The notes: generated by a model not told the origin, from the sequence alone. A stretch of DNA of 64,000 nucleotides from Candidatus Doudnabacteria bacterium (GCA_038230955.1 JBBRMG010000002.1:1199-65198); one strand, 5' to 3'. Positions 5,401 through 60,986 are shown, counted from the stretch's first letter. Translations and numbers: made by a program.

Positions 5401-5973
5401 TTTTACACCAATGACATTGGAATTGTCAGTGTCCAGCTCTAACCAAGCTCCACGGTTTGGGACAATCTTTGCCCCGTAAACATTTTTGCCACGCGAAAAC
5501 TCCGATGTGTAAAACACACCGGGAGATTTGATCAACTGAGATACGACAACGCGCTCCACACCATTGATAACAAATGTGCCGCGGTTAGTCATCAGGGGGA
5601 AATCGCCGAAGTAAACGTCCTGAGTCTTGGTCTTGCCTGTAACTTTGTTAACTAATTTGGCAGATACATACAACGGTGCTTCGTATGTAGTATTGCGCTC
5701 GCGTGACGTATTTTCATCATACTTTGGTTTGTCGAAAAAATAATCGCCAAATGTTAATTCTAAATTCTTGCCCGTAAAATCTTTAATCGGATTAATTTCG
5801 GACAACAGCTCCTTTAAACCCTTTTCAAAAAACCACTTGTACGAATTGAGTTGAATCTCAATAAGATTTGGCAACTGAGCTGTCTCATGCTGCTTGGTAA
5901 AGAATTTGCGCGGGCTAATTGATGTGGCTGGAGACACAACAACACTGGCGTCTGACTTTGCCTTGGATGACAT
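2470..5973 (-). CDS. rpoB: DNA-directed RNA polymerase subunit beta
   Basis: 1180-aa ORF (2470..6012) with the GKAQFGGQRFGEMEVWALEGYGAAHTLQEMLTIKSDD signature. The start is probably the internal ATG at 5973 (MSSKAKSD...), which is preceded by AGGGGAA; the 6012 start is the alternative. Confidence 0.93.
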   Translation of the reverse strand: MSSKAKSDASVVVSPATSISPRKFFTKQHETAQLPNLIEIQLNSYKWFFEKGLKELLSEINPIKDFTGKNLELTFGDYFFDKPKYDENTSRERNTTYEAPLYVSAKLVNKVTGKTKTQDVYFGDFPLMTNRGTFVINGVERVVVSQLIKSPGVFYTSEFSRGKNVYGAKIVPNRGAWLELDTDNSNVIGVKIDRKRRIPITALLRVFGLSTNDEIMAAFKEFDTNPDVRYIAATLEKDPSTNADEGFKEVYKRIRPGDLATVDNARSLISAMFFNFERYDLSEVGRYKFNQRSNYDHDTDSRILTLEDMTAVVKEIIRLNNEQAPADDIDHLANRRVRAVGELIQTRYRVGLARMSRIAKDRMSLADLDTVTPAQLIHIRPIVAAMQEFFSSSQLSQFMDQTNPLAELEHKRRLSAMGPGGLSRERAGFEVRDVHRSHYGRLCPITTPEGPNIGLVAHLATYARLNDFGFIETPYRMAKKNAKNDGKDAVGEIALYDVKDDKGNVVVTAGSHMTEVDAKKLHSIQDLAEIRIKTHLTKKIEYLDAYEEERLTIGQANIELDEKGYFLRERESIRVHGVPTIAETEGIDCVDISPKQIISVTTSLIPFLEHDDANRALMGSNMQRQAVSCIVPRAPIIGTGMEAKAARDSGQVIVSDEDGEVTAVAGDKISVQFDSGKKKDYPLLKFIRTNSGTAINQLARVDRGQKVKAGDVLADGTSTENGELALGQNVLIAFLSWEGGNYEDAILLSSRLVQDDMYSSVHIEDFKIDIRDTKLGPEVVTRDIPNIGEEKLKNLDETGVVRIGAQVKAGDILVGKITPKGETDLTAEEKLLRVIFGEKSRDVKDTSLNLPHGEYGKVVQIREFNRDQGDKLQSGVIRSIQVSIAVLRKIQVGDKMAGRHGNKGVISRIIPVEDMPFMADGTPVDIVLNPLGIVSRMNLGQVLETHMGFAAHKLGYKVATPVLDGITETQIKAELEKAGIPTNGKVVLHDGKTGEAFDKPVTVGVAYMLKLHHLVDDKMHARSTGPYSLITQQPLGGKAQFGGQRFGEMEVWALEGYGAAHTLQEMLTIKSDDVVGRSKTYEAIVKGEMIKKPNIPESFRVLVKELQSLGLDVELIGGAGQIISGEAAGATVVDEPLPVVAEVNPMTLFDEEDRKALDKKKKKEKAK

Positions 5974-6327
5974 GCGAGTACACTTCCCCTGTGCGCACAC
6001 GGCTGTACGCATTGGCTTAATTATGTAATTTTACTTCAAAAGTACTTTGAAATTTTGATTTTGAAAAAACTCGGAGAACCAAAAACACGATTGTGCGATA
6101 TAAAAAAGGTGTAAATAAGCGGGGTTTTTCCAGCAACGTTCTTGAATACAAAAAAATGCATCCCTCCTTGCATACGCAAAAAAGGGAGGCTTTAGAATTA
6201 GCCTTATTTTCCTATGAGATTGTGCACAAATTCATTCTAGCAGTCAAGAAAAACTTGTCAAGTTTATTTCTGCTGAAAACAAGAACAAGTACATTAACCT
6301 CTTAAACAAAGGGGTTTATCGTTATAG

Positions 6328-6428
6328 CCTATCCCTGTGTGTCCTAGGAAACTAGCGCTCCATTCTCTGCGCCCTACGGGCTAGCTCATGGTCGCTTAAT
6401 AGTTTCTTTCGGACATCACAGGGATAGG
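6328..6428. repeat. long-hairpin structured element, copy A (possible ncRNA)
   Basis: Perfect 12-bp outer stem cctatccctgtg/cacagggatagg extended by tgtcc/ggaca. Inner helix gaaacta (6348-6354) / tagtttc (6400-6406). The 5' flank ttaaacaaagggg.tttatc is shared with copy B. Confidence 0.55.
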
Positions 6429-6462
6429 CACAGATAGACCCTTTAAACAAGGAGGATTTATC

Positions 6463-6564
6463 CATCTGTACTGTATACCACAAATAAACTATTGAGCGAA
6501 TAAGTTGCTAGCCGAAGGCGCAGCAACTCGAGCGATTAGTTTATGGGGGTATACAGTACAGATG
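6463..6564. repeat. long-hairpin structured element, copy B (tandem with copy A)
   Basis: Perfect 17-bp outer stem catctgtactgtatacc/ggtatacagtacagatg. Inner aaacta/tagttt helix and an agttgct/agcaact hairpin. The flanks match copy A but the outer stem sequence is completely different (compensatory change). Confidence 0.55.
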
Positions 6565-6594
6565 CACACATAAAAAACCCTTATTCAAAGACAA

Positions 6595-7149
6595 TTATTC
6601 TATAATATCCCCCATTGGGTAGCCACTGACATCAATACTCCACAGAACCATATTCTTCTTTTTATAGCGCCAGTAAGCAGCGGGGGTGGCTAATCCTCGC
6701 TTTTCTCCCTGTTTTCCTATTAAATACACAGTCCTATGATCCAAAATGTCCAGAACCAAGCTACCAGGTTTAGCCCTCTTAGTGGGTCCTTCTACTAATT
6801 GCTTATCTGCTTCATTTGCGGCCACAATCCGAGAAAGCCTATAGTTATAAGTTAAAAACTCATTCAAACTGGCAAATCCCTGCTTATACCCTTTGCCTAC
6901 CAGAAATATAGTCGGACCACTCCGCACCAAAGTACTCGGTTTATGCGGAAAAGTCGACGTAGTCTGGGCTTGGACTAGTCGCGGCAGATATAAGACTGCG
7001 GTTAGAGCTACAGAGGCGAGCCCAGCTACCAATCCCATAGCCCCAAGCACTAATCTATATCTTAATTTATTCATAAGCAAACTTGTTAATGACTTTCTCA
7101 GGATAACAAAGCATGGGTGAATAAACGCTAAAGAAAAGCTCAATTGCAA
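6595..7149 (-). CDS. hypothetical membrane-anchored protein
   Basis: 184-aa ORF with one N-terminal TM helix (LVLGAMGLVAGLASVALTAVLYL). No motif recognised. Confidence 0.5.
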   Translation of the reverse strand: MQLSFSLAFIHPCFVILRKSLTSLLMNKLRYRLVLGAMGLVAGLASVALTAVLYLPRLVQAQTTSTFPHKPSTLVRSGPTIFLVGKGYKQGFASLNEFLTYNYRLSRIVAANEADKQLVEGPTKRAKPGSLVLDILDHRTVYLIGKQGEKRGLATPAAYWRYKKKNMVLWSIDVSGYPMGDIIE

Positions 7150-16453: not shown

Positions 16454-16521
16454 CAACACCTCTTATTGAGCTGAAACCAGTCGCTAACGCTCTAATGGTT
16501 TCTCTCTCAACAAGAGGTGTT
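16454..16521. terminator. inverted repeat / bidirectional terminator between convergent genes
   Basis: caacacctcttattgag ... ctcaacaagaggtgtt followed by tttttt. Confidence 0.5.
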
Positions 16522-16523
16522 TT

Positions 16524-17537
16524 TTATTTCTTGCTAATTAAATTAGCAATCAGCTGAACCATCACTTCTTTGTGGTCCGGCTTGCTTTCGGCAACCAAGA
16601 GCGCTATAGCCGTCAAAGCGTTATCAGAAATAATCCGCTCCCCTCTCCGATTATACACTCGATTGTTCTCTACTAAATATAACAGAAACAATAACGAACC
16701 AATGCGCTTGTTGCCATCAGCAAATGGATGATCTTTAATAGCGAAGTACAACAGATGCGCCGCTTTTTCTTCCATTGTTTGATACAGTACTTTGCCATCG
16801 AATGTTTGTTCAATATTTCCCAGCAATGCTTTTAGTTTATCTCCCACCTGTTTGCCAAATAAATCGCTGGCCTGCTTATCTTTCATTAAGCGAGCACGAA
16901 ACCGATCTACTGCTTTTGTTACTTTCTCGTGATCTAACGCCGCAATAACTTTCTTCGTACCTTTTTCCAAAACCAAATCATCTTTGTCATACTGATACAA
17001 CGTCGCCCAAGTATTGGCGTAGTCGGTAATAATATTGAGCACTTCCTTTTCATAACCTTCCAGCTGTTTGTTCTGAATAGCCGTTTGAATTAGGGAAACA
17101 GCCCCCTGCAGTTCTTTGACTTTAGCGACATTCTGATCTTTCAATCGCTGCTGGTTTACGGCGTACCCTTTTAGTAGATAATCACGCAGCCGCTGAGTGG
17201 CCCATATGCGGAACTGGGTGCCGCGTTTGGAATTAACTCTGTAGCCGACCGAAATAATCATGTCGATATTATAGAACTCAATTTCACGCTCTACTTGCCG
17301 TTTTCCTTCCATTTGAACTATCCGGAATTTCCGGATAGTTCGATTTTGGCTTAATTCAGACTCTTTATATACATTTTTAATATGTTCATTAATAGTTCTC
17401 AAGTCTTTACCAAACAATTCTGCCATCTGAGCTTGACTCAACCAAACAGTTTCATCTACAAAATTAACACGAATAACGGGACCTTCGTCAGTTTTATATA
17501 TTTCTATCTCACCTGTTTTAGGTTCATTTTTCCCCAT
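16524..17537 (-). CDS. RhuM-family protein with a C-terminal Fic/Doc domain
   Basis: N-terminus AQMAELFGKDLRTINEHIKNVY...IRKFRIVQMEGKRQVEREIEFYNIDMIISVGYRVNS is RhuM-like. C-terminus HPFADGNKRIGSLLF is the Doc/Fic HxFx(D)GNKR motif. Confidence 0.75.
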   Translation of the reverse strand: MGKNEPKTGEIEIYKTDEGPVIRVNFVDETVWLSQAQMAELFGKDLRTINEHIKNVYKESELSQNRTIRKFRIVQMEGKRQVEREIEFYNIDMIISVGYRVNSKRGTQFRIWATQRLRDYLLKGYAVNQQRLKDQNVAKVKELQGAVSLIQTAIQNKQLEGYEKEVLNIITDYANTWATLYQYDKDDLVLEKGTKKVIAALDHEKVTKAVDRFRARLMKDKQASDLFGKQVGDKLKALLGNIEQTFDGKVLYQTMEEKAAHLLYFAIKDHPFADGNKRIGSLLFLLYLVENNRVYNRRGERIISDNALTAIALLVAESKPDHKEVMVQLIANLISKK

Positions 17538-26691: not shown

Positions 26692-26974
26692 TTTTTCCCT
26701 CTTTTTATCTGTATCTAAACTTAGAACTACTACATTGCTTGGTTTCCCAAACAAAAAACTCTACACTTTTCGAGCCGGTCTGTTTTCCTGAATATTGGAT
26801 ATGTCTGAAAAGTACCGTGAAGGTAAAGCTATAGAGTTTTTTAATCGGGAATCCTATAAAAAGATACCTTTGTATTTATTTTTAAATACCCTCTAGTATA
26901 CTCATAAACAAGCCATTTGTCAAGAGACGAGGCGTGTTAATCAATATTTCTCCTTTAATTAAGCCAAATAATTT

Positions 26975-36481: not shown

Positions 36482-37570
36482 TTATTGATTTTCTTCCTCT
36501 TGGACGCTTGGGGCCAAAGTCACATGTTGACCGGCCATTTCTAAGGGGTGAGTGGTGGTAATGAAAGTCTGGAACTTCCCTTGTAAATATTTAAGTAAGA
36601 ATGTTCGCCGGGTTTCATCGAGTTCAGACAAAACATCATCTAGTAGTAAAATTGGCTTATCATCAACCTGAGTCAGGTACTCCAGTTCCAAAATTTTTAG
36701 TGCCAGAATCTGACTGCGTTGTTCACCGCGGGAAGAAAAGGAGCTTAGGTACAACCCCTCGCTTTGTAGGGAGAAATCATCTCGGTGTGGTCCTACCAAA
36801 GAAGTGCCGACAATTTGTTCTTTATTTTTTACCTCTGCCAGACGCTCGGTAAAATTCCCTACAATCTCTTCTTCAGTCTCACCAAGAATGCTGTCATAAA
36901 CCACCTCAACTGTACGATGAAACTTGGAAATAGCTGTATAGACTTCGGAAATATTTTGATTAAGGAAATTTATAAACCGTTTACGCTCCATAACTATTCG
37001 ACTGCCAACTTCTACTAATTGCATATTCCATGGGTCGACATCTTCGGGTCGTGCGCTCCCTAACTTAATATCAGTGAGCAAACGATTTTTCTGCGATAAT
37101 ATCCTTTTGTAATTTGTCAGGTCTTCTAAGTAAGATAAACTTTTCTGCGACATCACCATATTTAAATACTTGCGCCGGGCTTCCGGTGGCTTTGAAAAAA
37201 TATCTACATCAGTAGGTTCAAAAATTACTACCCTCATAAACCCTTGGGCTTCTTTTCGTTTCTTTTTTACGCCATCGATTTTAAAATTAGCATAGATCTT
37301 ATCACGCTTTTCCAAATAAATATCTAGCTGATGATCTTCCCCCTCACGCTCCAGTAACATTTTTATTTCGGCGGCAGCGCTCCCTTTTAAGAAAATAAAT
37401 TCTGCGTCATCTCGAAAAGATTTAAATAAAGAGGCAAAATAAACTGATTCCAATAAGTTAGTTTTTCCCACTGCATTTGGACCAGAAAGCACCACCATGT
37501 CACTGGTGATATTAAGGCTTAGGTCGGGGTAGTTGCGGAAGTTTTTGATCTCGATATTCTTGATTCTCAT
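36482..37570 (-). CDS. recF: DNA replication and repair protein RecF
   Basis: MRIKNIEIKNFRNY...LSGPNAVGKTNLLES. Confidence 0.9.
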   Translation of the reverse strand: MRIKNIEIKNFRNYPDLSLNITSDMVVLSGPNAVGKTNLLESVYFASLFKSFRDDAEFIFLKGSAAAEIKMLLEREGEDHQLDIYLEKRDKIYANFKIDGVKKKRKEAQGFMRVVIFEPTDVDIFSKPPEARRKYLNMVMSQKSLSYLEDLTNYKRILSQKNRLLTDIKLGSARPEDVDPWNMQLVEVGSRIVMERKRFINFLNQNISEVYTAISKFHRTVEVVYDSILGETEEEIVGNFTERLAEVKNKEQIVGTSLVGPHRDDFSLQSEGLYLSSFSSRGEQRSQILALKILELEYLTQVDDKPILLLDDVLSELDETRRTFLLKYLQGKFQTFITTTHPLEMAGQHVTLAPSVQEEENQ

Positions 37571-37583
37571 AAGTTTATTGGAA

Positions 37584-38681
37584 TTATCCTTTAATTGGCA
37601 TAACTAAATACATGTAATCATTGTCGCCTTGGGGCACAAATATAACAGGGGCGTTCTCATCAACCACCTTCACTGTAATGGCTTCAGCGGTCACAACTGA
37701 CAGAACATCGAGAACATAACGATAGTTTAGCATCACTGTGCCGGCCGTTCCACTAATCTCTGCGGGGACCTCTGCCACGCTCTCCCCTACATCATGTGAG
37801 ACTGCGCTCACGACCATGCTTTGCTTATCAGCATCATATGACATTGTGACTGTCCCTGTTCCCCGTGAAAATATACCACTTGTCTTTAGCGCAGATGATA
37901 ATGCTTGCCGTTCTACCAAGATTGTAGCATTAAATGCTTCGGGGATAATCTGCTTATAATCTGGGTACTGTCCGTCAATTAAGCGGCTGACTAAGTAACT
38001 GTCACCAACACTAACGGTCATCTGGCTATCGGCAATAATCACCGAAACATCATCCGTAAACCCATTCAATAATCTAGATATCTCTGCCGCTGTTTTGTGT
38101 GGAATGATAACTTGCTTTTCCAACTCTGATGATTCAACAATGATGGTTCTTTCGGCCAGTCGGTATCGGTCTGTGGCTACCAGTTTTAGGTTTCCTTTTC
38201 CGGGTTGAATCAGTATTCCTGAAATTTCCGGTTGTGATTCACTGGTGCTCGCTGAGAAAACAACTGAGTCTAAGGCATTTTTCAGGGCGGCCCCATTACA
38301 TTTTATTTGCGATCCGTTTTCGACTATTGGGATGGGGGGGAATTCTTCACTTGGTAAAGTTTTTAGTTTGGTTGAATAATGTTCAGTGATAATGCTAATT
38401 TCCCCGTCTTTATTATCCAAAGTTATATTCGTGCTCGGCAAACTGTTTATTAAATCTGTTAGTGTCTTTGCGGGGATGCTCACGCTGCCCTCCTGATCAA
38501 TTTTACAGCGGATGGTTGTGCTGATTGCCACCTCTAGGTTTGTTCCGACCAGTTTAAGCTGCCCATTTTCGGTGGTCATCAAAATACTATTCAGGATTGG
38601 TAGAGTGTTGCTCGTGCCGATAACCCTTCCGACGGTGGCAAGCCCATTCTTTAAATTTTCTTGGGTGCAAACAATTTTCAT
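37584..38681 (-). CDS. dnaN: DNA polymerase III subunit beta (sliding clamp)
   Basis: 365 aa with typical beta-clamp N-terminus. Sits between dnaA and recF. Confidence 0.9.
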   Translation of the reverse strand: MKIVCTQENLKNGLATVGRVIGTSNTLPILNSILMTTENGQLKLVGTNLEVAISTTIRCKIDQEGSVSIPAKTLTDLINSLPSTNITLDNKDGEISIITEHYSTKLKTLPSEEFPPIPIVENGSQIKCNGAALKNALDSVVFSASTSESQPEISGILIQPGKGNLKLVATDRYRLAERTIIVESSELEKQVIIPHKTAAEISRLLNGFTDDVSVIIADSQMTVSVGDSYLVSRLIDGQYPDYKQIIPEAFNATILVERQALSSALKTSGIFSRGTGTVTMSYDADKQSMVVSAVSHDVGESVAEVPAEISGTAGTVMLNYRYVLDVLSVVTAEAITVKVVDENAPVIFVPQGDNDYMYLVMPIKG

Positions 38682-38900
38682 TGTTGTTATTAATTAATTT
38701 AAATAAATAGTAGTAATAGTAATAAGGGCTGGGGATTTGTGGATGGGTGGAATATCGGCAATGTTTATAGGCAGTTTCCCGTTTCTGGTATGTTGGTATC
38801 TCAGTGCACAAAGGGCGGGTAGAGCTGTGGATGTTTGGGGGTAATTATTAGGTGCGCTACATGGCTGTGTATATACTCAGTTTTTATTAAGTGCTTATCA
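38682..38900. other. probable oriC (dnaA-dnaN intergenic): AT-rich DNA-unwinding stretch plus DnaA boxes
   Basis: TGTGGATgg at 38737-38745 and TGTGGATgt at 38825-38833. AT-rich tract 38682-38725. Confidence 0.55.
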
Positions 38901-40271
38901 TCAGGTTATATACAACTTATCCAGTATCAAATCTAATTCCTGTTTTACGGTTTCATTGGTGCTGACAATGTTTTCAATTTTATCAACGCCGTGCATTACA
39001 GTTGTGTGGTCTCTTCCTCCAAAGAACTCGCCAATGGTAGGGAATGAGCTATTGAGTTCTTTTCGTGAGATGTACATTGCTACCTGTCTCGGTTTAACAT
39101 ATTCCTTACGGCGGGATTGTTTAATCAAGTCTTCAATTGTGATGTTGTAGAATTCAGCGACTGACAGAGCAATTTTTTTCAGACTAAGAACTTTCTTTTT
39201 TGCACTCATCATGTTGGCCAAAATTTGTTTTGCTCTGTCCATGGTCAGAGGAACATTTTCCATTTGTTGGAAGACAATTAGGCGATTCAATGCACCTTCT
39301 AACTCTCTTATATTACTAACAACATGCTCAGCTATAAATTCAAGGATGTCATCGGGGATATTTACCCCCCGCTTTTGTACTTTAGAATTAAGTATTGCTA
39401 ATCGTGTTTCCATATCCGGCGCTTGAACATCTGCTACCATCCCCCATTCAAACCTAGATATTAACCTTTGTTCGATTGACGTAATATCTTTTGGCTGACG
39501 ATCGGCGGTGAGGATAATCTGCTTGCCTTTGTCGCGAAGCTCATTAAATGTATGAAAGAATTCTTCTTGCGTTCCTTCTTTACCGGCGATAAACTGAATA
39601 TCATCAATTAGCAACATATCTACCGAGCGATAGATTTTCTTAAACTCATCCATTTTTTTATGGCCAATTGCATATACGTAGTCATTAGTGAATTTCTCGC
39701 TAGTGACGTACAAGACTTTACTCCGGGGATTATCGTGCATCAATTTATTGCCGACAGCGTGCATTAAGTGGGTTTTTCCTAAGCCCACGCCACCGTAAAT
39801 AAATAACGGATTGTACTGTGAACCAGGGTTTTTGCCCACTGCATTACTAGCAGCGTTGGCCAGTTCATTATGCTTGCCAATGACAAGGGTGTCGAAAACG
39901 TATTTGGGGTTTAAACTGCCAGTTGCTGCAGCTGACGTTTCTTTATGTTGATTTTGAAAATCTGTGGTCGATTGTGAGTCTACTCGTTGGCGGTCGACTT
40001 TTGGTGAAGAGCTGGGTTCAGGTCGGGCCTGGCCTACATGATATTTCACTTCTCGGATCTCTGGGCTGATTTGTTTAAGTGTTTTAAGAAGTTCATTGTG
40101 AAATTTTTCGGATATCCACTTACGGATGAACTCGCTAGGCACTCCGACAACTATGCCGTCCTCTGTTCTTTCTAGAATGGAAGTGCCTTTAAACCAGGTG
40201 TTAAAGTTGCCTCGGCTAATTGATACTTCCAGACTGCCTAATATTGATTGCCAGAGTTGTCCGTTTGTCAT
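38901..40271 (-). CDS. dnaA: chromosomal replication initiator DnaA
   Basis: NPLFIYGGVGLGKTHLMHAVGN AAA+ region and a C-terminal DNA-binding domain. Confidence 0.95.
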   Translation of the reverse strand: MTNGQLWQSILGSLEVSISRGNFNTWFKGTSILERTEDGIVVGVPSEFIRKWISEKFHNELLKTLKQISPEIREVKYHVGQARPEPSSSPKVDRQRVDSQSTTDFQNQHKETSAAATGSLNPKYVFDTLVIGKHNELANAASNAVGKNPGSQYNPLFIYGGVGLGKTHLMHAVGNKLMHDNPRSKVLYVTSEKFTNDYVYAIGHKKMDEFKKIYRSVDMLLIDDIQFIAGKEGTQEEFFHTFNELRDKGKQIILTADRQPKDITSIEQRLISRFEWGMVADVQAPDMETRLAILNSKVQKRGVNIPDDILEFIAEHVVSNIRELEGALNRLIVFQQMENVPLTMDRAKQILANMMSAKKKVLSLKKIALSVAEFYNITIEDLIKQSRRKEYVKPRQVAMYISRKELNSSFPTIGEFFGGRDHTTVMHGVDKIENIVSTNETVKQELDLILDKLYIT

Positions 40272-40336
40272 GTTTTTTTCAGGATTTCAAGTTTTATTTA
40301 AGGTTTTTTCAAGATATTCCCCATTGTAACAGGCAC

Positions 40337-40414
40337 TTATCAACATGTAAATAAAAGAAATATAACGCTTATATAAAGCCGTAAATAGTGGTTATGTGAA
40401 TATGGTGTGGAAAA
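40337..40414. other. DnaA-box-like cluster upstream of dnaA (second origin module)
   Basis: TTATCAACA (40337-40345), TTATGTGAA (40392-40400), TGTGGAAAA (40406-40414). Confidence 0.4.
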
Positions 40415-40448
40415 CTATTGAATTTTTGTGTATATCTTTTTTGAAGGA

Positions 40449-40477
40449 TTGACGGTGGCTCAATAAATTAGTATAAT
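40449..40477 (+). promoter_or_regulatory. sigma70-like promoter (TTGACG-17-TATAAT) for rpmH
   Basis: Consensus hexamers with a 17-nt spacer, ~30 nt before rpmH. Confidence 0.55.
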
Positions 40478-40506
40478 AGTCAAAGAATTGTTAATTATTG
40501 TCACTC

Positions 40507-40641
40507 ATGAAGAGAACCTACCAGCCGAAAGTAAAGCGCAGAAAAAGAGTGCACGGTTTCCGTAAACGTATGCAAACCAAGCCCGGAAGAAACGTGTTAG
40601 CCCGCCGCCGTCTGAAAGGACGCAAACGTCTAACTGTTTAA
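40507..40641 (+). CDS. rpmH: 50S ribosomal protein L34
   Basis: [44 protein letters not shown]. 44 aa, below the ORF-track cutoff. Confidence 0.95.
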
Positions 40642-40647
40642 CCCAAT

Positions 40648-40989
40648 ATGTTAAAAAAGAACTACCGCCTAACCAAAAGCAAGGATATCCAACAGACCTC
40701 CATGCGGGGGCGGAGTTTTTTTAACCCCCTTTTTGTGCTTAAATATCGAGCCGCATCTTTAGTTGAGCCGCGGTTTGGGTTTATTGTTTCAACAAAAGTA
40801 TCTAAACGGGCAGTGGAACGTAATCGCATAAAAAGGGTTGCGAGGGAACAAATCCGCTCCATTATTACTGACTTCAAAACCGGAGATTATGTTATCATTG
40901 TAAAGTCTAAAGCATCTGGGAAAACACCCACCGAATTACGGGCTTCCCTATCACAGCTTTGTCAGTCATCTAAGCTTTTGAATCTATGA
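40648..40989 (+). CDS. rnpA: ribonuclease P protein component
   Basis: FGFIVSTKVSKRAVERNRIKRVAREQIR. Confidence 0.88.
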   Translation: MLKKNYRLTKSKDIQQTSMRGRSFFNPLFVLKYRAASLVEPRFGFIVSTKVSKRAVERNRIKRVAREQIRSIITDFKTGDYVIIVKSKASGKTPTELRASLSQLCQSSKLLNL

Positions 40990-41255
40990 ACAAGACTATT
41001 TTAATACCCAGACAAATAGCATTGGTGTTAATCAGGATATATCAGAAAACACTATCACCGGACCACGGGCTGTTCCGAGCACGTTACCCTCACGGGTTTT
41101 GTCGTTACTATCCATCTTGTAGTCAATATGGATACGATGCTATTAGTCGCTATGGTTTGATTCGCGGAGGCCTTATGACAAGCTGGAGAATATTGCGTTG
41201 CAACCCATGGACTAAACCCAGCATAGACCAAGTGCCAACGCGAGCAACAATTTAA
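40986..41255 (+). CDS. yidD: membrane protein insertion efficiency factor YidD
   Basis: CRYYPSCSQYGYDAISRYGLIRGGLMTSWRILRCNPW. Confidence 0.88.
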   Translation: MNKTILIPRQIALVLIRIYQKTLSPDHGLFRARYPHGFCRYYPSCSQYGYDAISRYGLIRGGLMTSWRILRCNPWTKPSIDQVPTRATI

Positions 41256-41278
41256 ATTAATCATTATCTATTTTTCTC

Positions 41279-42004
41279 ATGTTACTACATCTGTACTCTG
41301 AAATTATTTATCGCCCAATATTAAATGTCTTAGTGTTCTTGTATAACATTATTCCCGGACATGATGTTGGTTTGGCGATCATCGCCGTGACTGTCCTAGT
41401 GAGAATAATTCTGGCGCCTTTTATGCACCGTTCATTGAAGAGCCAACAAGCGATGACTGCTTTACAACCAAAGATGAATGATTTACGGGAGCAACATAAG
41501 GATAATAAGGAAGAGCAAGCAAAAGCCATTATGGCTTTATACAAGGAACACAAAGTTAATCCTTTGGCTTCTTGCTTACCGCTCATCATACAGCTACCAA
41601 TTTTAATTGCCCTATATCAAGTATTAGCCAAAGCATTAAGAGGAAATCTAGATGGCCTATATCATTTTGTTCACAACCCAGGTCTCTTAAATCCAAAAAT
41701 GTTTGGATTGATAGATTTGTCTCACCCAAACTTTATTTTTGCTATTGCAGCGGGACTAGCTCAGTTCTGGCAGTCTAAACTAATGACCGCCTCTAACACC
41801 CCTAGCACAGATCCGACAGCTAAAATGATGAACGTTCAAGTGATGTATATTTTGCCATTGATTTCTGTATTCATTGCTTGGCGCTTACCAGCTGGGTTGC
41901 CGTTGTATTGGACCACCACCACTTTGCTGTTAGTCCTGCAGCAAAAATATATTTCTAAGGCAGATCTAAGTACTATCAACTCAACAGCCACTGTTGTTAA
42001 ATAA
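41279..42004 (+). CDS. yidC: membrane protein insertase YidC (short form)
   Basis: YidC/Oxa1 core (LAPFMH...KMNDLREQHKDNKEEQAKAIMALYKEHKVNPLASCLPLIIQLPILIALY). Confidence 0.9.
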   Translation: MLLHLYSEIIYRPILNVLVFLYNIIPGHDVGLAIIAVTVLVRIILAPFMHRSLKSQQAMTALQPKMNDLREQHKDNKEEQAKAIMALYKEHKVNPLASCLPLIIQLPILIALYQVLAKALRGNLDGLYHFVHNPGLLNPKMFGLIDLSHPNFIFAIAAGLAQFWQSKLMTASNTPSTDPTAKMMNVQVMYILPLISVFIAWRLPAGLPLYWTTTTLLLVLQQKYISKADLSTINSTATVVK

Positions 42005-42009
42005 GAACG

Positions 42010-42474
42010 ATGACTGACTACGACAAAGCTGAACAAGTTAAATTGTTAATTCAGAACCTTCTTTCACAAGGCGGTTTTCAGGCCCAAGTTGAATATGAAG
42101 ACAGCTTGCTCAAAGGGCTAGTGTTTAACATTAGCACCCGGGAATCACGTTCCCTTATTGGTCGGCAAGGAATGACCTTGCATGCATTGGAAATTCTAGT
42201 TCATGCATTAGCGGCCCGTACTTTTAAAGGAGAACTATTTCGATTTTCTTTGGACGTCGATGATTATAAGCGTAAGCGTGAGTGGTCTCTAAAAGAGTTG
42301 GCTCGTGAGACTGCAGGAAAACTACAAGCTACAGGTAAGTCTATCGCTTTAGAACCAATGCCCAATTACGAACGCCGCATTGTTCATGCTTACTTACAAG
42401 AAAATTATCCGGAGATTGTTAGTGTCAGTGAGGGCGTGGATCCTAATAGAAAGATTGTTGTTAGTTTGAAGTAG
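42010..42474 (+). CDS. jag: Jag/KhpB RNA-binding protein (KH + R3H)
   Basis: LIGRQGMTLHALEILV (KH) and PMPNYERRIVHAYL (R3H). Confidence 0.85.
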   Translation: MTDYDKAEQVKLLIQNLLSQGGFQAQVEYEDSLLKGLVFNISTRESRSLIGRQGMTLHALEILVHALAARTFKGELFRFSLDVDDYKRKREWSLKELARETAGKLQATGKSIALEPMPNYERRIVHAYLQENYPEIVSVSEGVDPNRKIVVSLK

Positions 42475-42482
42475 GTATACAA

Positions 42483-42593
42483 AAAACACCTCCATCATTG
42501 CTTGAAACTATCGCTCGAGTTGCTGCTGCTGAACTTCGTTCATCATAGCAACTTTGTCGCTCAATAGTTTCCTTGCAACGATGGAGGTGTTTT
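42483..42593. repeat. long-hairpin structured element, copy C (possible ncRNA)
   Basis: 19-bp outer stem aaaacacctccatcattgc/gcaacgatggaggtgtttt (one mismatch). Inner gaaacta/tagtttc helix and agttgct/agcaact hairpin shared with copy B. Confidence 0.55.
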
Positions 42594-42761
42594 GTATTTC
42601 CATTTAAACTGGCAACAACCAGTGTGTTGCATAATAATACTTCAAACTGACAAGCAAGCGTTTATTTTACCCACAGTTTATAATTTATTTAACTTTCTGT
42701 GAACAGGGTTATGCTACGGTAACTGTATGCTATAATATTAATCCCAAGAAAGTTAAATTCT

Positions 42762-43010
42762 ATGACAGAAATAAATTTCCAACCAGTTTTTGATTATATT
42801 GATGCTTTAGAGACAAAGATAGACCCTTTGGTCGAAAGAATTGATGATTTGGGGCACAAATTTGACAATCTTCAATCGGCCGTAGATAAGTCGCTAACGG
42901 ATTTACGCAATATAAATGAGGAGAAAGTAATAACTGCTTATCGTACTAAGCGTTTAGAGGAATGGGCCAAGCCGGTGGGTGAAAAAGTTGAAGTTCCATT
43001 TGAAGTTTAG
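42762..43010 (+). CDS. hypothetical small coiled-coil protein
   Basis: 82 aa, preceded by an extended -10 tgctataat. Confidence 0.4.
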   Translation: MTEINFQPVFDYIDALETKIDPLVERIDDLGHKFDNLQSAVDKSLTDLRNINEEKVITAYRTKRLEEWAKPVGEKVEVPFEV

Positions 43011-60261: not shown

Positions 60262-60292
60262 AAAAGCCTCACTATTATAGTGAGGCTTTTTT
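60262..60292 (+). terminator. rho-independent terminator of rpsA
   Basis: gcctcac-tattata-gtgaggc followed by tttttt, abutting the 3' end of the convergent tRNA-Leu. Confidence 0.7.
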
Positions 60293-60378
60293 GGTGCCCG
60301 AGGTGGGACTTGAACCCACATGCCTATTCGGCACGACATTTTAAGTGTCGCGAGTATAACCAATTTCTCCACTCGGGC
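60292..60378 (-). tRNA. tRNA-Leu (anticodon UAA), type II with long variable arm, CCA encoded
   Basis: GCCCGAG acceptor, anticodon stem CGACA/TGTCG with loop CTTAAAA, variable arm TGCCGAATAGGCA, T-arm GTGGG-TTCAAGT-CCCAC, then A-CCA. Confidence 0.85.
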
Positions 60379-60856
60379 TTATTGTTTTACGCTTGCCTCT
60401 ACCGCGATATGTAGGAGTTAAGCTGTGACAGTTTGGGCAAAGAATTCTTAGATTCTCCATGCGATTATCGTGACGGTCCCCATTAATATGGTCTAACTCT
60501 AGAGGAGTATATCCATCAACGGTCTTTTCCGCCCAACCGCAATGTTCACAGTATCCAGGCTTCATTCCGGCCGCTATCAGTCTGGGTTTGAGTTTGTAGC
60601 TTTGATAGTAACTATGGCTAATCAATATCTCACCAAACGTTCTTTGGGGCTTACCAACGCCACTCATTCCTTTATTCCATGCCTGACCGGTAAAATGAGT
60701 AGTCTTGATTTTATACTGAACAATATATTTCTTTAGCTGATCATAGTTACCGCCAGCTGGACGTAATTTTAACCGAACTAAAACCTGTCTATAACTTTTA
60801 CTATTATAGACTGCATTTCTTAGTTCATCAATTGTCCAAGACCTTTTTCTATTCAT
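60341..60856 (-). CDS. HNH endonuclease (free-standing, homing-endonuclease-like)
   Basis: CEHCGW...LELDHINGDRHDNRMENLRILCPNCHS zinc-finger HNH motif. The 3' end overlaps tRNA-Leu by 38 nt. Confidence 0.8.
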   Translation of the reverse strand: MNRKRSWTIDELRNAVYNSKSYRQVLVRLKLRPAGGNYDQLKKYIVQYKIKTTHFTGQAWNKGMSGVGKPQRTFGEILISHSYYQSYKLKPRLIAAGMKPGYCEHCGWAEKTVDGYTPLELDHINGDRHDNRMENLRILCPNCHSLTPTYRGRGKRKTISPSGEIGYTRDT

Positions 60857-60911
60857 ACATATAGTATGCCTAAGGTCTGATCAAATTATGTTAAAGAACT
60901 TATCAAGCTTC

Positions 60912-60986
60912 TGGAGGTGCGAGCGGGAATCGAACCCGCGCATAGAGGTTTTGCAGACCACCGCGTTACCATTTCGCCATCGCACC
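60912..60986 (-). tRNA. tRNA-Cys (anticodon GCA), U73 discriminator, CCA encoded
   Basis: GGTGCGA acceptor, anticodon loop CTGCAAA, T-arm GCGGG-TTCGATT-CCCGC, then T-CCA. Confidence 0.8.

What the first reader, a model, noticed from the sequence alone, without database searches (positions are those of the whole stretch)
6297..6585. Tandem pair of ~140-nt structured elements upstream of rpoB with compensatory outer-stem changes
Two adjacent units share conserved flanks (5' ttaaacaagg.gg.tttatc, 3' cacaNata.a..ccc). Both also share an inner helix (g)aaacta...tagttt(c). Each closes a 12-17 bp perfect outer stem whose sequence differs completely between the copies: cctatccctgtg/cacagggatagg versus catctgtactgtatacc/ggtatacagtacagatg. 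Pairing is preserved while sequence is replaced, which is the signature of a structured RNA (or structured DNA element) under selection. It is not expected of a simple terminator. The pair lies in the 5' region of rpoB and is not an obvious match to any known RNA family from the sequence alone.
Basis: seen in the sequence. Interest (0 to 1): 0.8.

Follow-up and report, generated by a model that had tools for sequence, protein, structure and literature searches.

The report
Dispersed hairpin repeat pair near rpoB
The two ~140-nt units are real, very stable hairpins, but they are two members of a small family of intergenic hairpin repeats found only in one genus-level group of Patescibacteria. 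They lie after a neighbouring gene and ahead of the rpoB promoter, so they are not an rpoB-specific regulatory RNA.

Summary
Two adjacent hairpins (6327-6429 and 6463-6564) have perfect 13-bp and 17-bp outer stems of unrelated sequence, similar ~33-nt linkers and a shared inner core. There are three corrections. First, the core of unit 2 is inverted relative to unit 1. Second, the pair lies downstream of a 159-aa gene and upstream of the conserved rpoB promoter, not in the rpoB leader. Third, the core is a dispersed repeat, with two more copies at 16.5 kb and 42.5 kb inside terminator-like hairpins.

The core is a 7-bp helix P1 (GAAACUA/UAGUUUC), two GAGCGA loop repeats and an optional helix P2-P3. 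It recurs in the same gene159-rpoB spacer in three genus-level relatives (rpoB 95% identical in the one measured). It is absent from relatives at 85-88% rpoB identity. P1 and P2 covary, the loops stay constant, and wobble pairs favour the purine-loop strand.

No Rfam family, transposase or Tas gene was found. Pattern scans of three collections found no further copy, but those of the genome and metagenome sets could match only long-form copies.

Best reading: a lineage-specific, REP/BIME-like family of structured 3'-flank hairpins, probably acting as RNA. How it spreads and why its stems vary are unknown. Interest is moderate.

The parts
6291..6321 (.). Linker R1 (ACATTAACCTCTTAAACAAAGGGGTTTATCG). 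It is the promoter-proximal copy of the ~33-nt linker.
   Evidence: Direct repeat family D1. My own reading. The linker alone is only weakly structured.
6327..6429 (-). Hairpin U1. Outer stem 6327-6339/6417-6429 (13 bp perfect), sub-helix 6340-6344/6411-6415, and apical module 6348-6406. The module has P1 GAAACTA/TAGTTTC, diverged loop repeats and diverged P2/P3. The purine-loop (GAGCG) strand is the minus strand, which is the sense strand of gene159 and rpoB.
   Evidence: (-59.2 / -56.5 kcal/mol, z about -8.5).
6430..6462 (.). Linker R2 (CACAGATAGACCCTTTAAACAAGGAGGATTTATC), between the two hairpins.
6463..6564 (+). Hairpin U2. Outer stem 6463-6479/6548-6564 (17 bp perfect) and apical module 6485-6543. 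The module reads TAAACTA TTGAGCGA - P2 AGTTGCT/AGCAACT - apical GCC-GAA-GGC - CGAGCGAT TAGTTTA. The purine-loop strand is the plus strand, antisense to gene159.
   Evidence: (-53.2 kcal/mol on both strands, z about -9.5).
6565..6600 (.). Linker R3 (CACACATAAAAAACCCTTATTCAAAGACAATTATTC). It is the most diverged linker copy and overlaps the stop codon of gene159.
   Evidence: My own alignment of the sequences. The similarity to R2 is weaker than that of R1 to R2.
6595..7074 (-). gene159: a 159-aa predicted secreted protein of unknown family, whose 3' flank carries U2 and U1.
   Evidence: translation with an N-terminal hydrophobic signal. (no Pfam hit). (homologues at 52-69% identity, all next to ruvA and/or rpoB).
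6234..6261 (-). rpoB promoter (TTGACA, 16 nt, TAGAAT, 11 of 12 consensus matches, with a TG extension). It is conserved in all relatives, and U1/U2 lie upstream of it.
16455..16521 (-). Copy C4, between the convergent rpsT and RhuM/Fic genes. The outer stem is terminator-like: AACACCTCTTATTGAG / CTCAACAAGAGGTGTT followed by a T-run. The mini module is at 16473-16502 (minus strand: GAAACCA TTAGAGCGTTAGCGAC TGGTTTC). It has no P2/P3, and P1 carries a compensatory U-A to C-G change.
   Evidence: I3; 28/32 identical to the L060 module.
42478..42596 (-). Copy C3, starting 4 nt after the jag stop codon. The outer stem ATACAAAAAACACCTCCATCATTGC / GCAACGATGGAGGTGTTTTGTAT has A- and T-tracts, like a bidirectional terminator, and is homologous to the C4 outer stem. 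The long module is at 42504-42571.
   Evidence: I7; -56.8 kcal/mol on +; -62.3 kcal/mol on -.

Best explanation
U1 and U2 are two members, in opposite orientation, of a lineage-restricted family of intergenic hairpin repeats.

Anatomy. Each member has a long, almost perfectly paired stem whose sequence is specific to that copy. The stem is capped by a conserved apical module with three parts:
- a 7-bp helix P1 (GAAACUA/UAGUUUC);
- a purine-rich loop with two direct GAGCGA repeats, which can pair with each other as G.A, A.G, G-C, C-G, G.A, A.G, and which together with the UU(R) bulge after P1 resembles a kink-turn;
- optionally, an inserted helix P2 with a small apical stem-loop P3.

Proposed function. 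The folded single strand is what is maintained. It is most probably RNA, co-transcribed as the 3' flank of the upstream gene. The hairpins would then act as 3'-end structures that terminate transcription, block 3' exonucleases or insulate the next promoter. The conserved module would be a protein-binding platform. In the finding region the tandem, inverted pair separates gene159 from the rpoB promoter.

The family behaves like REP/BIME elements: it is intergenic, close to stop codons, clustered with alternating orientation and conserved linkers, and it turns over quickly between close relatives.

Shown here: the anatomy, the dispersal, the presence in relatives, the covariation, the strand asymmetry, and the position relative to the promoter.
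Inferred: that the active molecule is RNA, the terminator/insulator/stabiliser role, the kink-turn-like fold, and any mechanism of spread.
For: - Four copies in 64 kb share the module, and a 24-base signature matches only them (0 expected by chance).
- All copies lie in 3' flanks. C3 begins 4 nt after the jag stop codon. C4 lies between the convergent rpsT and Fic genes. U2 begins ~30 nt after the gene159 stop codon.
- C3 and C4 have A-tract/T-tract terminator-like outer stems, like the ordinary terminators of this genome.
- The same module sits in the gene159-rpoB spacer of L059, L060 and L062. L059 has 95% rpoB identity to the window. These loci carry one mini copy, one mini copy and a tandem pair respectively.
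- The L060 module is 28/32 identical to C4, although the outer stems are unrelated.
- Covariation. In P1, 55 of 56 cells are paired and 4 of 7 pairs show double changes. In P2, 2 of 7 pairs show double changes, one of them with three pair types. The L059/L060 outer stems differ by 3 compensatory pairs. The loop repeats TTGAGCGAC...CGAGCGA are identical in C3 and L062-B, and U2 differs only by lacking the final C, while P2 covaries.
- The purine-loop strand folds better as RNA in 6 of 8 copies, for example L060 at -39.0 versus -23.6 kcal/mol and L062-A at -51.8 versus -37.0.
- That strand is the sense strand of the upstream gene for U1, L059, L060 and L062-B, and of the Fic gene for C4.
- The units lie upstream of the conserved rpoB promoter. 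They are absent from L001-L003, which keep the promoter and leader.
- No promoter-like site that could drive them independently was found.
Against: - There are no transcript data, so the choice between RNA and single-stranded or cruciform DNA is not settled.
- U1, U2, L059, L060 and L062-B have no U-tract on either strand and were not called as terminators. They are not canonical intrinsic terminators.
- In U2, L062-A and C3 the purine-loop strand is antisense to the upstream gene.
- U1 folds slightly better on the other strand.
- The copy-specific perfect outer stems and the triplicated linker are not explained by a simple functional-RNA model. Gene conversion between palindrome arms could mimic covariation without any selection on RNA.
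- Only 8 copies from 4 genomes are available, and some share ancestry (C3/C4 and L059/L060).
- The rest of the source genome could not be examined, so neither the copy number nor a possible mobilising enzyme is known.
Confidence: 0.55

Rival explanations
1. A purely selfish, non-autonomous mobile DNA element of MITE or REP/REPIN type. In this reading the apical module, or the whole hairpin, is copied to new intergenic sites, preferentially into the loops of existing hairpins. An enzyme encoded elsewhere in the genome would do the copying. Any effect on transcription would be incidental.
For: - The distribution is dispersed and intergenic, with 4 copies in 64 kb.
- Number, form (mini or long), orientation and exact position differ at the same locus among genus-level relatives.
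- The hairpins are absent from relatives at 85-88% rpoB identity, and pattern scans of the public collections found no further copy, although only the long form was searched in the genome and metagenome sets.
- The architecture is nested and modular. The same module occurs in unrelated stems, the same stem occurs with or without P2-P3 (C3 versus C4), and the L062-B outer arms look like an inverted duplication of part of the neighbouring module.
- Short direct repeats (GA or AAG) flank P1 in several copies.
- C3 and C4 share an inherited A.C/G.U position in their outer stems, so they are copies of one another rather than independent terminators.
Against: - No transposase, RAYT, recombinase or reverse transcriptase was found among the 56 window ORFs scanned against Pfam. 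A few ORFs, including the fragment left of rpoB, were not scanned, and several scanned ORFs match no family.
- The architecture is the reverse of that of classical MITEs and REPINs: the apex is conserved and the stems vary.
- The putative target-site duplications are 2-3 nt, inconsistent, and can also be read as structural G.A pairs.
- The orthologous L059 and L060 hairpins have kept their pairing through compensatory and G.U changes, and the wobble pairs are biased to one strand. Neutral decay of a dead insertion would not predict this.
Confidence: 0.3
2. Stem-loop-type TIGR guide RNAs. These are tandem hairpins with variable palindromic stems and short conserved motifs repeated twice in the loop. 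They are used by a Nop-domain Tas protein encoded elsewhere, as described for Patescibacteria.
For: The published description of stem-loop TIGR arrays fits superficially: CPR hosts, tandem units with linkers, stems that differ between units of one array, a motif repeated twice inside the loop, an optional secondary hairpin between the two halves, and a CUU motif at the stem base (PMC12045711; bioRxiv 10.64898/2026.09.09.750476). U1 and U2 have linkers that contain CUU on the + strand.
Against: - No Nop or Tas protein is detectable in the 64-kb window by Pfam, or by sequence search of the PDB with four of the ORFs that lack a Pfam match.
- The segments where spacers should lie (GAAACUA... and ...UAGUUUC) are conserved in all 8 copies and complementary to each other. 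They are not variable 8-12-nt guides.
- The loop motifs are GAGCGA repeats, not the CUU/UG or CCA/UG boxes.
- The copies are single or paired and scattered after unrelated genes. Published arrays are described as lying upstream of, downstream of or inside the tas gene.
Confidence: 0.04
3. One reading: a cis-regulatory or small RNA specific to rpoB, lying in its 5' region, duplicated in tandem and evolving by compensatory substitution.
For: The units are close to rpoB, ~35-300 nt upstream of its -35 box. A module-bearing hairpin recurs immediately upstream of the rpoB promoter in L059, L060 and L062. The folds are very stable.
Against: - The units are outside the transcribed leader.
- The true conserved leader (6227 to 5974) is present without the hairpins in L001-L003 and L061.
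- The same module occurs after jag and rpsT, far from rpoB.
- The outer stems of U1 and U2 are not homologous.
Confidence: 0.05

Closest known systems
REP elements and their clusters (BIMEs) of Enterobacteria and Pseudomonas, including REPINs
   Same: They are short palindromic repeats confined to extragenic space, typically just after stop codons. They occur singly or in clusters with alternating orientation and conserved linkers. They are lineage-specific and vary in number between close relatives. They act, from general knowledge, as 3' hairpins that stabilise upstream mRNA or terminate transcription.
   Different: In REPs and REPINs the palindrome arms are the conserved part and the loop or spacer is variable. 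Here the apex is conserved and the long stems are specific to each copy. No RAYT gene is seen, but the rest of the genome is not available. No conserved GTAG-type 5' tetranucleotide is present.
MITEs and nested small dispersed repeats (for example the cyanobacterial SDRs; from memory, not re-read here)
   Same: They are small non-coding repeats that can sit inside other repeats or hairpins. They have a modular, nested architecture and are present or absent at orthologous sites.
   Different: There is no whole-length homology between copies. The only terminal inverted repeat is the 7-bp P1 helix. Target-site duplications are not consistent, and no partner transposase was found.
Stem-loop TIGR arrays of TIGR-Tas systems (PMC12045711; bioRxiv 10.64898/2026.09.09.750476)
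   Same: Patescibacteria hosts. Tandem hairpins whose stems are palindromic but differ between units. A conserved motif repeated twice in the loop. An optional extra hairpin between the two halves. Linkers between units.
   Different: No tas gene is nearby. There are no variable spacers, because the corresponding segments are conserved and pair with each other. The motifs differ (GAGCGA versus CUU/UG). The copies are scattered through the genome.
Rho-independent (intrinsic) terminators
   Same: Stable GC-containing hairpins directly after genes. C3 and C4 have A- and T-tracts like the ordinary bidirectional terminators of this genome.
   Different: U1 and U2, and the copies in L059, L060 and L062-B, lack a U-tract on both strands. 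The stems are 13-23 bp with a 30-66-nt structured apex, roughly twice the length of ordinary terminator stems here. The apex sequence is conserved across loci and genomes.
Kink-turn / box C/D-type tandem G.A motifs
   Same: A canonical helix (P1), then a 2-3-nt bulge (UU or UUR), then G.A/A.G pairs made by GA on both strands.
   Different: This rests on sequence-level resemblance only. Position 3b.3n would be a Watson-Crick G-C pair. The long form has a second, symmetric G.A pair set. No L7Ae or Nop partner was identified, and the fold is untested.

Membership tests
Any Rfam family | A covariance-model match at or above the family's gathering score | tested here: not met
   No match overlaps any copy at the gathering threshold. 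At E <= 5-10 there were only chance hits to miRNA, snoRNA or leader models, 30-55 bits below gathering. L059, L060 and L062 gave none.
rpoB leader / cis-regulatory RNA | The element lies within the rpoB transcript, downstream of its promoter | tested here: not met
   The promoter is at 6261-6234 on the minus strand and is conserved in 6 related loci. U1 and U2 are at 6327-6564, which is upstream of it.
rpoB leader / cis-regulatory RNA | Conserved together with rpoB in related genomes | tested here: not met
   L001, L002 and L003 (85-88% rpoB identity) and L061 keep the promoter, and L001-L003 also the full leader (the L061 contig ends just past the promoter), but have no module.
Intrinsic terminator | A GC-containing hairpin followed directly by a U-tract | tested here: not met
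   For U1 and U2 the terminator scan lists only hairpins in the rpoB leader, and there is no T-run next to either stem on either strand. The feature is met for C3 and C4.
REP / BIME | Many copies of a short palindrome, restricted to extragenic regions, often near the 3' ends of genes | tested here: inconclusive
   There are 4 copies in 64 kb, all intergenic and close to stop codons. The genome-wide count cannot be obtained because the source genome is not in the searchable collections.
REP / BIME | Clusters with alternating orientation and conserved linker motifs | tested here: met
   U1 and U2 are inverted relative to each other, with linkers R1, R2 and R3. L062 has the same arrangement of two oppositely oriented units.
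REP / BIME | An associated RAYT (TnpA_REP) gene in the genome | not testable with these tools
   None is present among the window ORFs scanned against Pfam. The rest of the genome is unavailable.
MITE | Terminal inverted repeats, target-site duplications and whole-length homology between copies | tested here: not met
   Homology is confined to the apical module. Outer stems are unrelated except between C3 and C4 and between L059 and L060. The flanking GA/AAG repeats are inconsistent.
TIGR-Tas stem-loop array | A Nop-domain Tas gene adjacent to the array | tested here: not met
   No Nop or Tas hit among the window ORFs scanned against Pfam, or in PDB sequence searches with four of the ORFs that have no Pfam match. 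A very divergent Tas could escape detection.
TIGR-Tas stem-loop array | [quoted passage not shown] | tested here: not met
   The segments between the stem and the central hairpin are conserved in all 8 copies and complementary to each other, forming P1.
TIGR-Tas stem-loop array | Palindromic stems that vary between the units of one array | tested here: met
   The outer stems of U1 and U2 are 13 and 17 bp, perfect and unrelated.
Kink-turn motif | C-helix, 3-nt bulge and tandem sheared G.A pairs, with a sharp kink on protein or Mg2+ binding | not testable with these tools
   The sequence pattern GAAACUA-UU(R)-GA-GC ... GC-GA-UAGUUUC is compatible with it. The geometry cannot be tested computationally here.

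The most novel reading that the evidence does not exclude
The conserved module (P1, a UU(R) bulge and a symmetric GAGCGA/GAGCGA purine loop, with a tolerated P2-P3 insertion) may be a previously undescribed protein-binding RNA motif of a Patescibacteria lineage. It would be kink-turn-like and carried at the tips of 3'-UTR or intergenic hairpins. It could mark transcripts for a dedicated RNA-binding protein involved in 3'-end formation, decay control or localisation. It might also be a spacer-less evolutionary relative of the stem-loop RNAs used by Nop-domain (TIGR-Tas) proteins in the same phylum.
Probability: 0.2. Interest if true: 0.7.

Novelty: new variant of a known kind. Interest (0 to 1): 0.5.

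Why it matters
Dispersed palindromic repeats are well known in Proteobacteria. I found none described for the reduced genomes of Patescibacteria in the one full-text search I made for them, and such compact genomes leave little room for selfish DNA.

This family is unusual in three ways. The apex is conserved and covaries across genomes. The long perfect stems are specific to each copy. One strand folds consistently better than the other. If the module is a protein-binding RNA platform, it would give a way into post-transcriptional control in an uncultivated phylum. If it is mobile, its nested, stem-replacing behaviour points to an insertion or fold-back copying mechanism that differs from the standard MITE model.

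For annotation, the practical result is that these hairpins are not an rpoB riboregulator. The real conserved rpoB promoter and leader lie just downstream of them.

Tried and rejected
- Rfam, at gathering and at permissive thresholds, on the region, on the whole window, on the other copies and on the related loci: nothing relevant.
- Exact look-up of window proteins to recover the source genome: not on record, three times. The cluster look-up for rpoB gave no accession or organism name.
- Pattern scans for the long-form module: 0 hits in the GTDB species genomes, 0 in the JGI metagenome contigs and 0 in the viral contigs.
- A P2-only pattern in the metagenome contigs: 30 hits, all in high-GC sequence with no module context.
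- The linker pattern in the genome collection: 25 hits scattered over unrelated phyla, consistent with chance or ribosome-binding sites.
- A mini-module pattern in the viral contigs: 95 hits, none with the hairpin context.
The absence of the mini form from those collections is therefore untested.
- The CRISPR-like reading (three repeats and two spacers) was rejected, because the 'spacers' are homologous to each other and palindromic.
- attC (integron) sites were rejected: there are no R''/R' core sites, and the conservation is at the apex rather than at the base.
- Retron or IS200/IS605 ends were rejected for lack of a reverse transcriptase or TnpA/TnpB gene nearby.
- An uptake-signal reading was rejected, because the motifs occur only in these 4 copies and not throughout the coding sequence.
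- Orientation relative to the presumed replication origin near 40.4 kb shows no consistent pattern (2 of 4 copies).
- MAFFT alignments of the intergenic regions and of the modules were too poor for the count of structure pairs. Pairs were therefore counted on a manual register.

Full report
**Setting.** The window has 42.7% G+C and a compact gene layout. Its rpoB is most similar to proteins named Patescibacteria or Doudnabacteria. The identical protein sits on a 66.7-kb NCBI contig. rpoB is on the minus strand. Upstream of it, also on the minus strand, is a 159-aa gene (6595-7074) with an N-terminal signal-like segment and no Pfam family. Beyond that gene, ruvA diverges. The finding region, 6297-6585, therefore lies between the stop codon of the 159-aa gene and rpoB.

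**Check of the observation.** U1 has a perfect 13-bp outer stem (6327-6339/6417-6429). U2 has a perfect 17-bp outer stem (6463-6479/6548-6564). The 5' flanks are 76% identical at a 141-nt spacing. Both units contain an AAACTA...TAGTTT inner helix. The region folds at -134.5 kcal/mol (z = -13.5) on the plus strand and -132 kcal/mol (z = -9.7) on the minus strand. Each hairpin alone folds at -53 to -59 kcal/mol, with z about -8 to -10 on either strand.

Two details differ from the description. The inner ~60 nt of U2 is the reverse complement of that of U1 (I2/I4). The 'flanks' are three copies of a ~33-nt linker (R1 6291-6321, R2 6430-6462, R3 6565-6600) that separate two hairpins.

**Position relative to rpoB.** A near-consensus promoter (TTGACA, 16 nt, TAGAAT) lies at 6261-6234 on the minus strand. 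This promoter is conserved in every related locus fetched: L001, L002 and L003 (85-88% rpoB identity) and L059-L062. The leader that follows it (GUGCACAA..., with two terminator-like hairpins) is likewise conserved wherever the contig reaches it. U1 and U2 are upstream of the promoter and so are not part of the rpoB transcript. L001-L003 have the promoter and leader but no hairpins, and only ordinary short terminators elsewhere. The slot between ruvA and rpoB is itself variable. It is empty in L001 and holds an unrelated 195-aa gene in L003.

**A dispersed family.** The inner core recurs twice more in the window.
- C3 (42478-42596) starts 4 nt after the jag stop codon. It carries a long core at the tip of a 19-23-bp stem with A- and T-tracts.
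- C4 (16455-21) lies between the convergent rpsT and RhuM/Fic genes. It carries a 30-nt 'mini' core, GAAACCA-GTCGCTAACGCTCTAA-TGGTTTC, which lacks the central helix.

A 24-base signature matches exactly these copies, with none expected by chance. Looser searches for P1-like helices find no further copies. The C3 and C4 outer stems are homologous to each other (13/16) and share the same non-Watson-Crick position. The U1 and U2 stems are unrelated to each other and to all the others.

**Relatives.** Homologues of the 159-aa gene (52-69% identity) lie on short contigs with the same synteny. L059 shares 95% rpoB identity with the window over 434 aa.
- L059 and L060 each have one hairpin between the gene and the rpoB promoter, with a mini core. 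The L060 core is 28/32 identical to the reverse complement of C4, although the stems are unrelated.
- L062 has two units, as the window does. The stop-proximal unit has diverged loops. The promoter-proximal unit is a long form in yet another perfect 13-bp stem.
- L061, the most distant (52%), has no module, only a linker-like sequence.

The family is therefore shared by a genus-level clade. At this one locus its number (0, 1 or 2), form, orientation, exact position and outer stem all differ between genomes.

**Structure and constraint.** Read on the strand where the loops are purine-rich, the consensus is:
(G)A-GAAACUA-UU(R)-GAGCGA(C)-[P2-P3]-(C)GAGCGA-UAGUUUC.

Across the 8 copies P1 is paired in 55 of 56 cells, and 4 of its 7 pairs show compensatory double changes. 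P2 has double changes at 2 of 7 pairs, for example AGUUGCU/AGCAACU becoming AUUCGCU/AGCGAAU. The orthologous L059 and L060 outer stems differ by three compensatory pairs and are never disrupted (my reading). The loop repeats are identical in C3 and L062-B, and near-identical in U2, while P2 covaries.

The purine-loop strand folds better as RNA in 6 of 8 copies, equally well in U2 and worse in U1. This is because the non-canonical pairs are G.U on that strand and A.C on the other.

Two GAGCGA strands can pair as G.A, A.G, G-C, C-G, G.A, A.G. Together with the UU(R) bulge after P1 this resembles a kink-turn. That is an inference from sequence, not a tested fold.

**What it is not.**
- No Rfam family matches.
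- U1 and U2 lack U-tracts and are not canonical terminators. C3 and C4 look like terminators.
- No transposase, RAYT, reverse transcriptase or Nop/Tas protein is encoded in the window, as far as Pfam and PDB sequence searches can tell.
- The stem-loop TIGR arrays of Patescibacteria are the closest published description. They share variable palindromic stems, a motif repeated twice in the loop and an optional central hairpin. The defining variable spacers and the adjacent tas gene are missing here, so membership is rejected.
- Pattern scans of the GTDB species genomes, the JGI metagenome contigs and IMG/VR found no further copies.

**Interpretation.** The best-supported reading is a lineage-specific, REP/BIME-like family of structured hairpins in the 3' flanks of genes. 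The folded purine-loop strand, probably RNA, appears to be under constraint. The tandem inverted pair U2-U1 separates the 159-aa gene from the rpoB promoter. I put this at about 0.55.

A purely selfish mobile element gets 0.3. It explains the turnover, the nesting and the unrelated stems better. It explains the maintained pairing and the strand bias worse. The two readings are not exclusive, as the REP elements show. An rpoB-specific riboregulator (0.05) and TIGR guides (0.04) are unlikely.

**Unexplained.**
- Why does every copy have its own long perfect stem?
- Why is the linker triplicated around the two hairpins?
- Why do the outer arms of L062-B look like an inverted duplication of part of the neighbouring module?
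- Why do the two units of a pair have opposite orientation in both genomes that carry a pair?

These points suggest a fold-back or hairpin-loop insertion process. That cannot be tested on eight copies.

Noticed in passing
window 5974-6261, minus strand: The rpoB promoter (doubled TTGACA, then TAGAAT) and a ~250-nt leader are conserved in the related loci. The leader begins GUGCACAA..AUAGGAAAAUAAGGC..AAGCC(C)UUUUUUGC.GUAUGCA..AGGGGAU..UUUUUUUG. That gives two overlapping terminator-like hairpins that look like an attenuator. No Rfam family matches. This, rather than U1/U2, is the conserved 5' element of rpoB.
   Followed up: partly
window 5971-6012, minus strand: The mechanical ORF, and the deposited 1180-aa protein, start at the ATG at 6012. 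Alignment with L059 and L001 suggests that the real start is the ATG at 5973-5971, which is preceded by GGGGAAG. That would give a protein of ~1167 aa.
   Followed up: partly
window 36482-42474: recF-like, dnaN and dnaA genes on the minus strand are followed by small ORFs, yidC and jag on the plus strand. The chromosomal replication origin is probably in 40272-40647. Copy C3 lies ~2 kb from it.
   Followed up: no
window 6595-7074; L001 9604-10001; L003 894-1481: The slot between ruvA and rpoB is hypervariable. It is empty in L001. It holds an unrelated 195-aa gene in L003. In the window and in L059-L062 it holds a fast-evolving secreted 159-aa protein (59% identity to its L059 homologue, against 95% for rpoB).
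   Followed up: partly
L002 7138-7179 and 7914-7953: A different 42-nt hairpin repeat (AAGGACCGAAACTGCGCAAA / TTCGCG..GCTTCGGTCCTT) occurs twice, once after each of two LDcluster4 paralogues. It is either another small repeat family in a relative or a by-product of a gene duplication.
   Followed up: no
window 6264-6283 (minus strand); L059 ~770-790; L060 ~765-840; L062 ~885-915: A T-rich motif, TTTTCTTGTCAGTT, is repeated one to three times upstream of the rpoB promoter in the close relatives. The window has CTTGTTCTTGTTTTCAGCAG. It could be an upstream promoter element or a protein-binding site.
   Followed up: no
window 26741-26854: A long imperfect inverted repeat (30-nt arms, 77% complementary, 54-nt spacer) overlaps the start of a 338-aa ORF with no known family. 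It does not contain the module.
   Followed up: partly
window 60292-60986: An HNH endonuclease ORF (60341-60856) lies between tRNA-Leu (whose annotated end it overlaps) and tRNA-Cys. This may be a homing-type insertion.
   Followed up: no
window 16524-17537: A RhuM/Fic-domain gene converges on rpsT, and the two genes share the C4 hairpin as their 3' structure.
   Followed up: no
window 42817-42829: A 13-nt exact match to linker R2 (AGATAGACCCTTT) lies inside the 82-aa ORF ~220 nt downstream of C3. The BLAST E-value is about 0.25, so it is probably chance.
   Followed up: no
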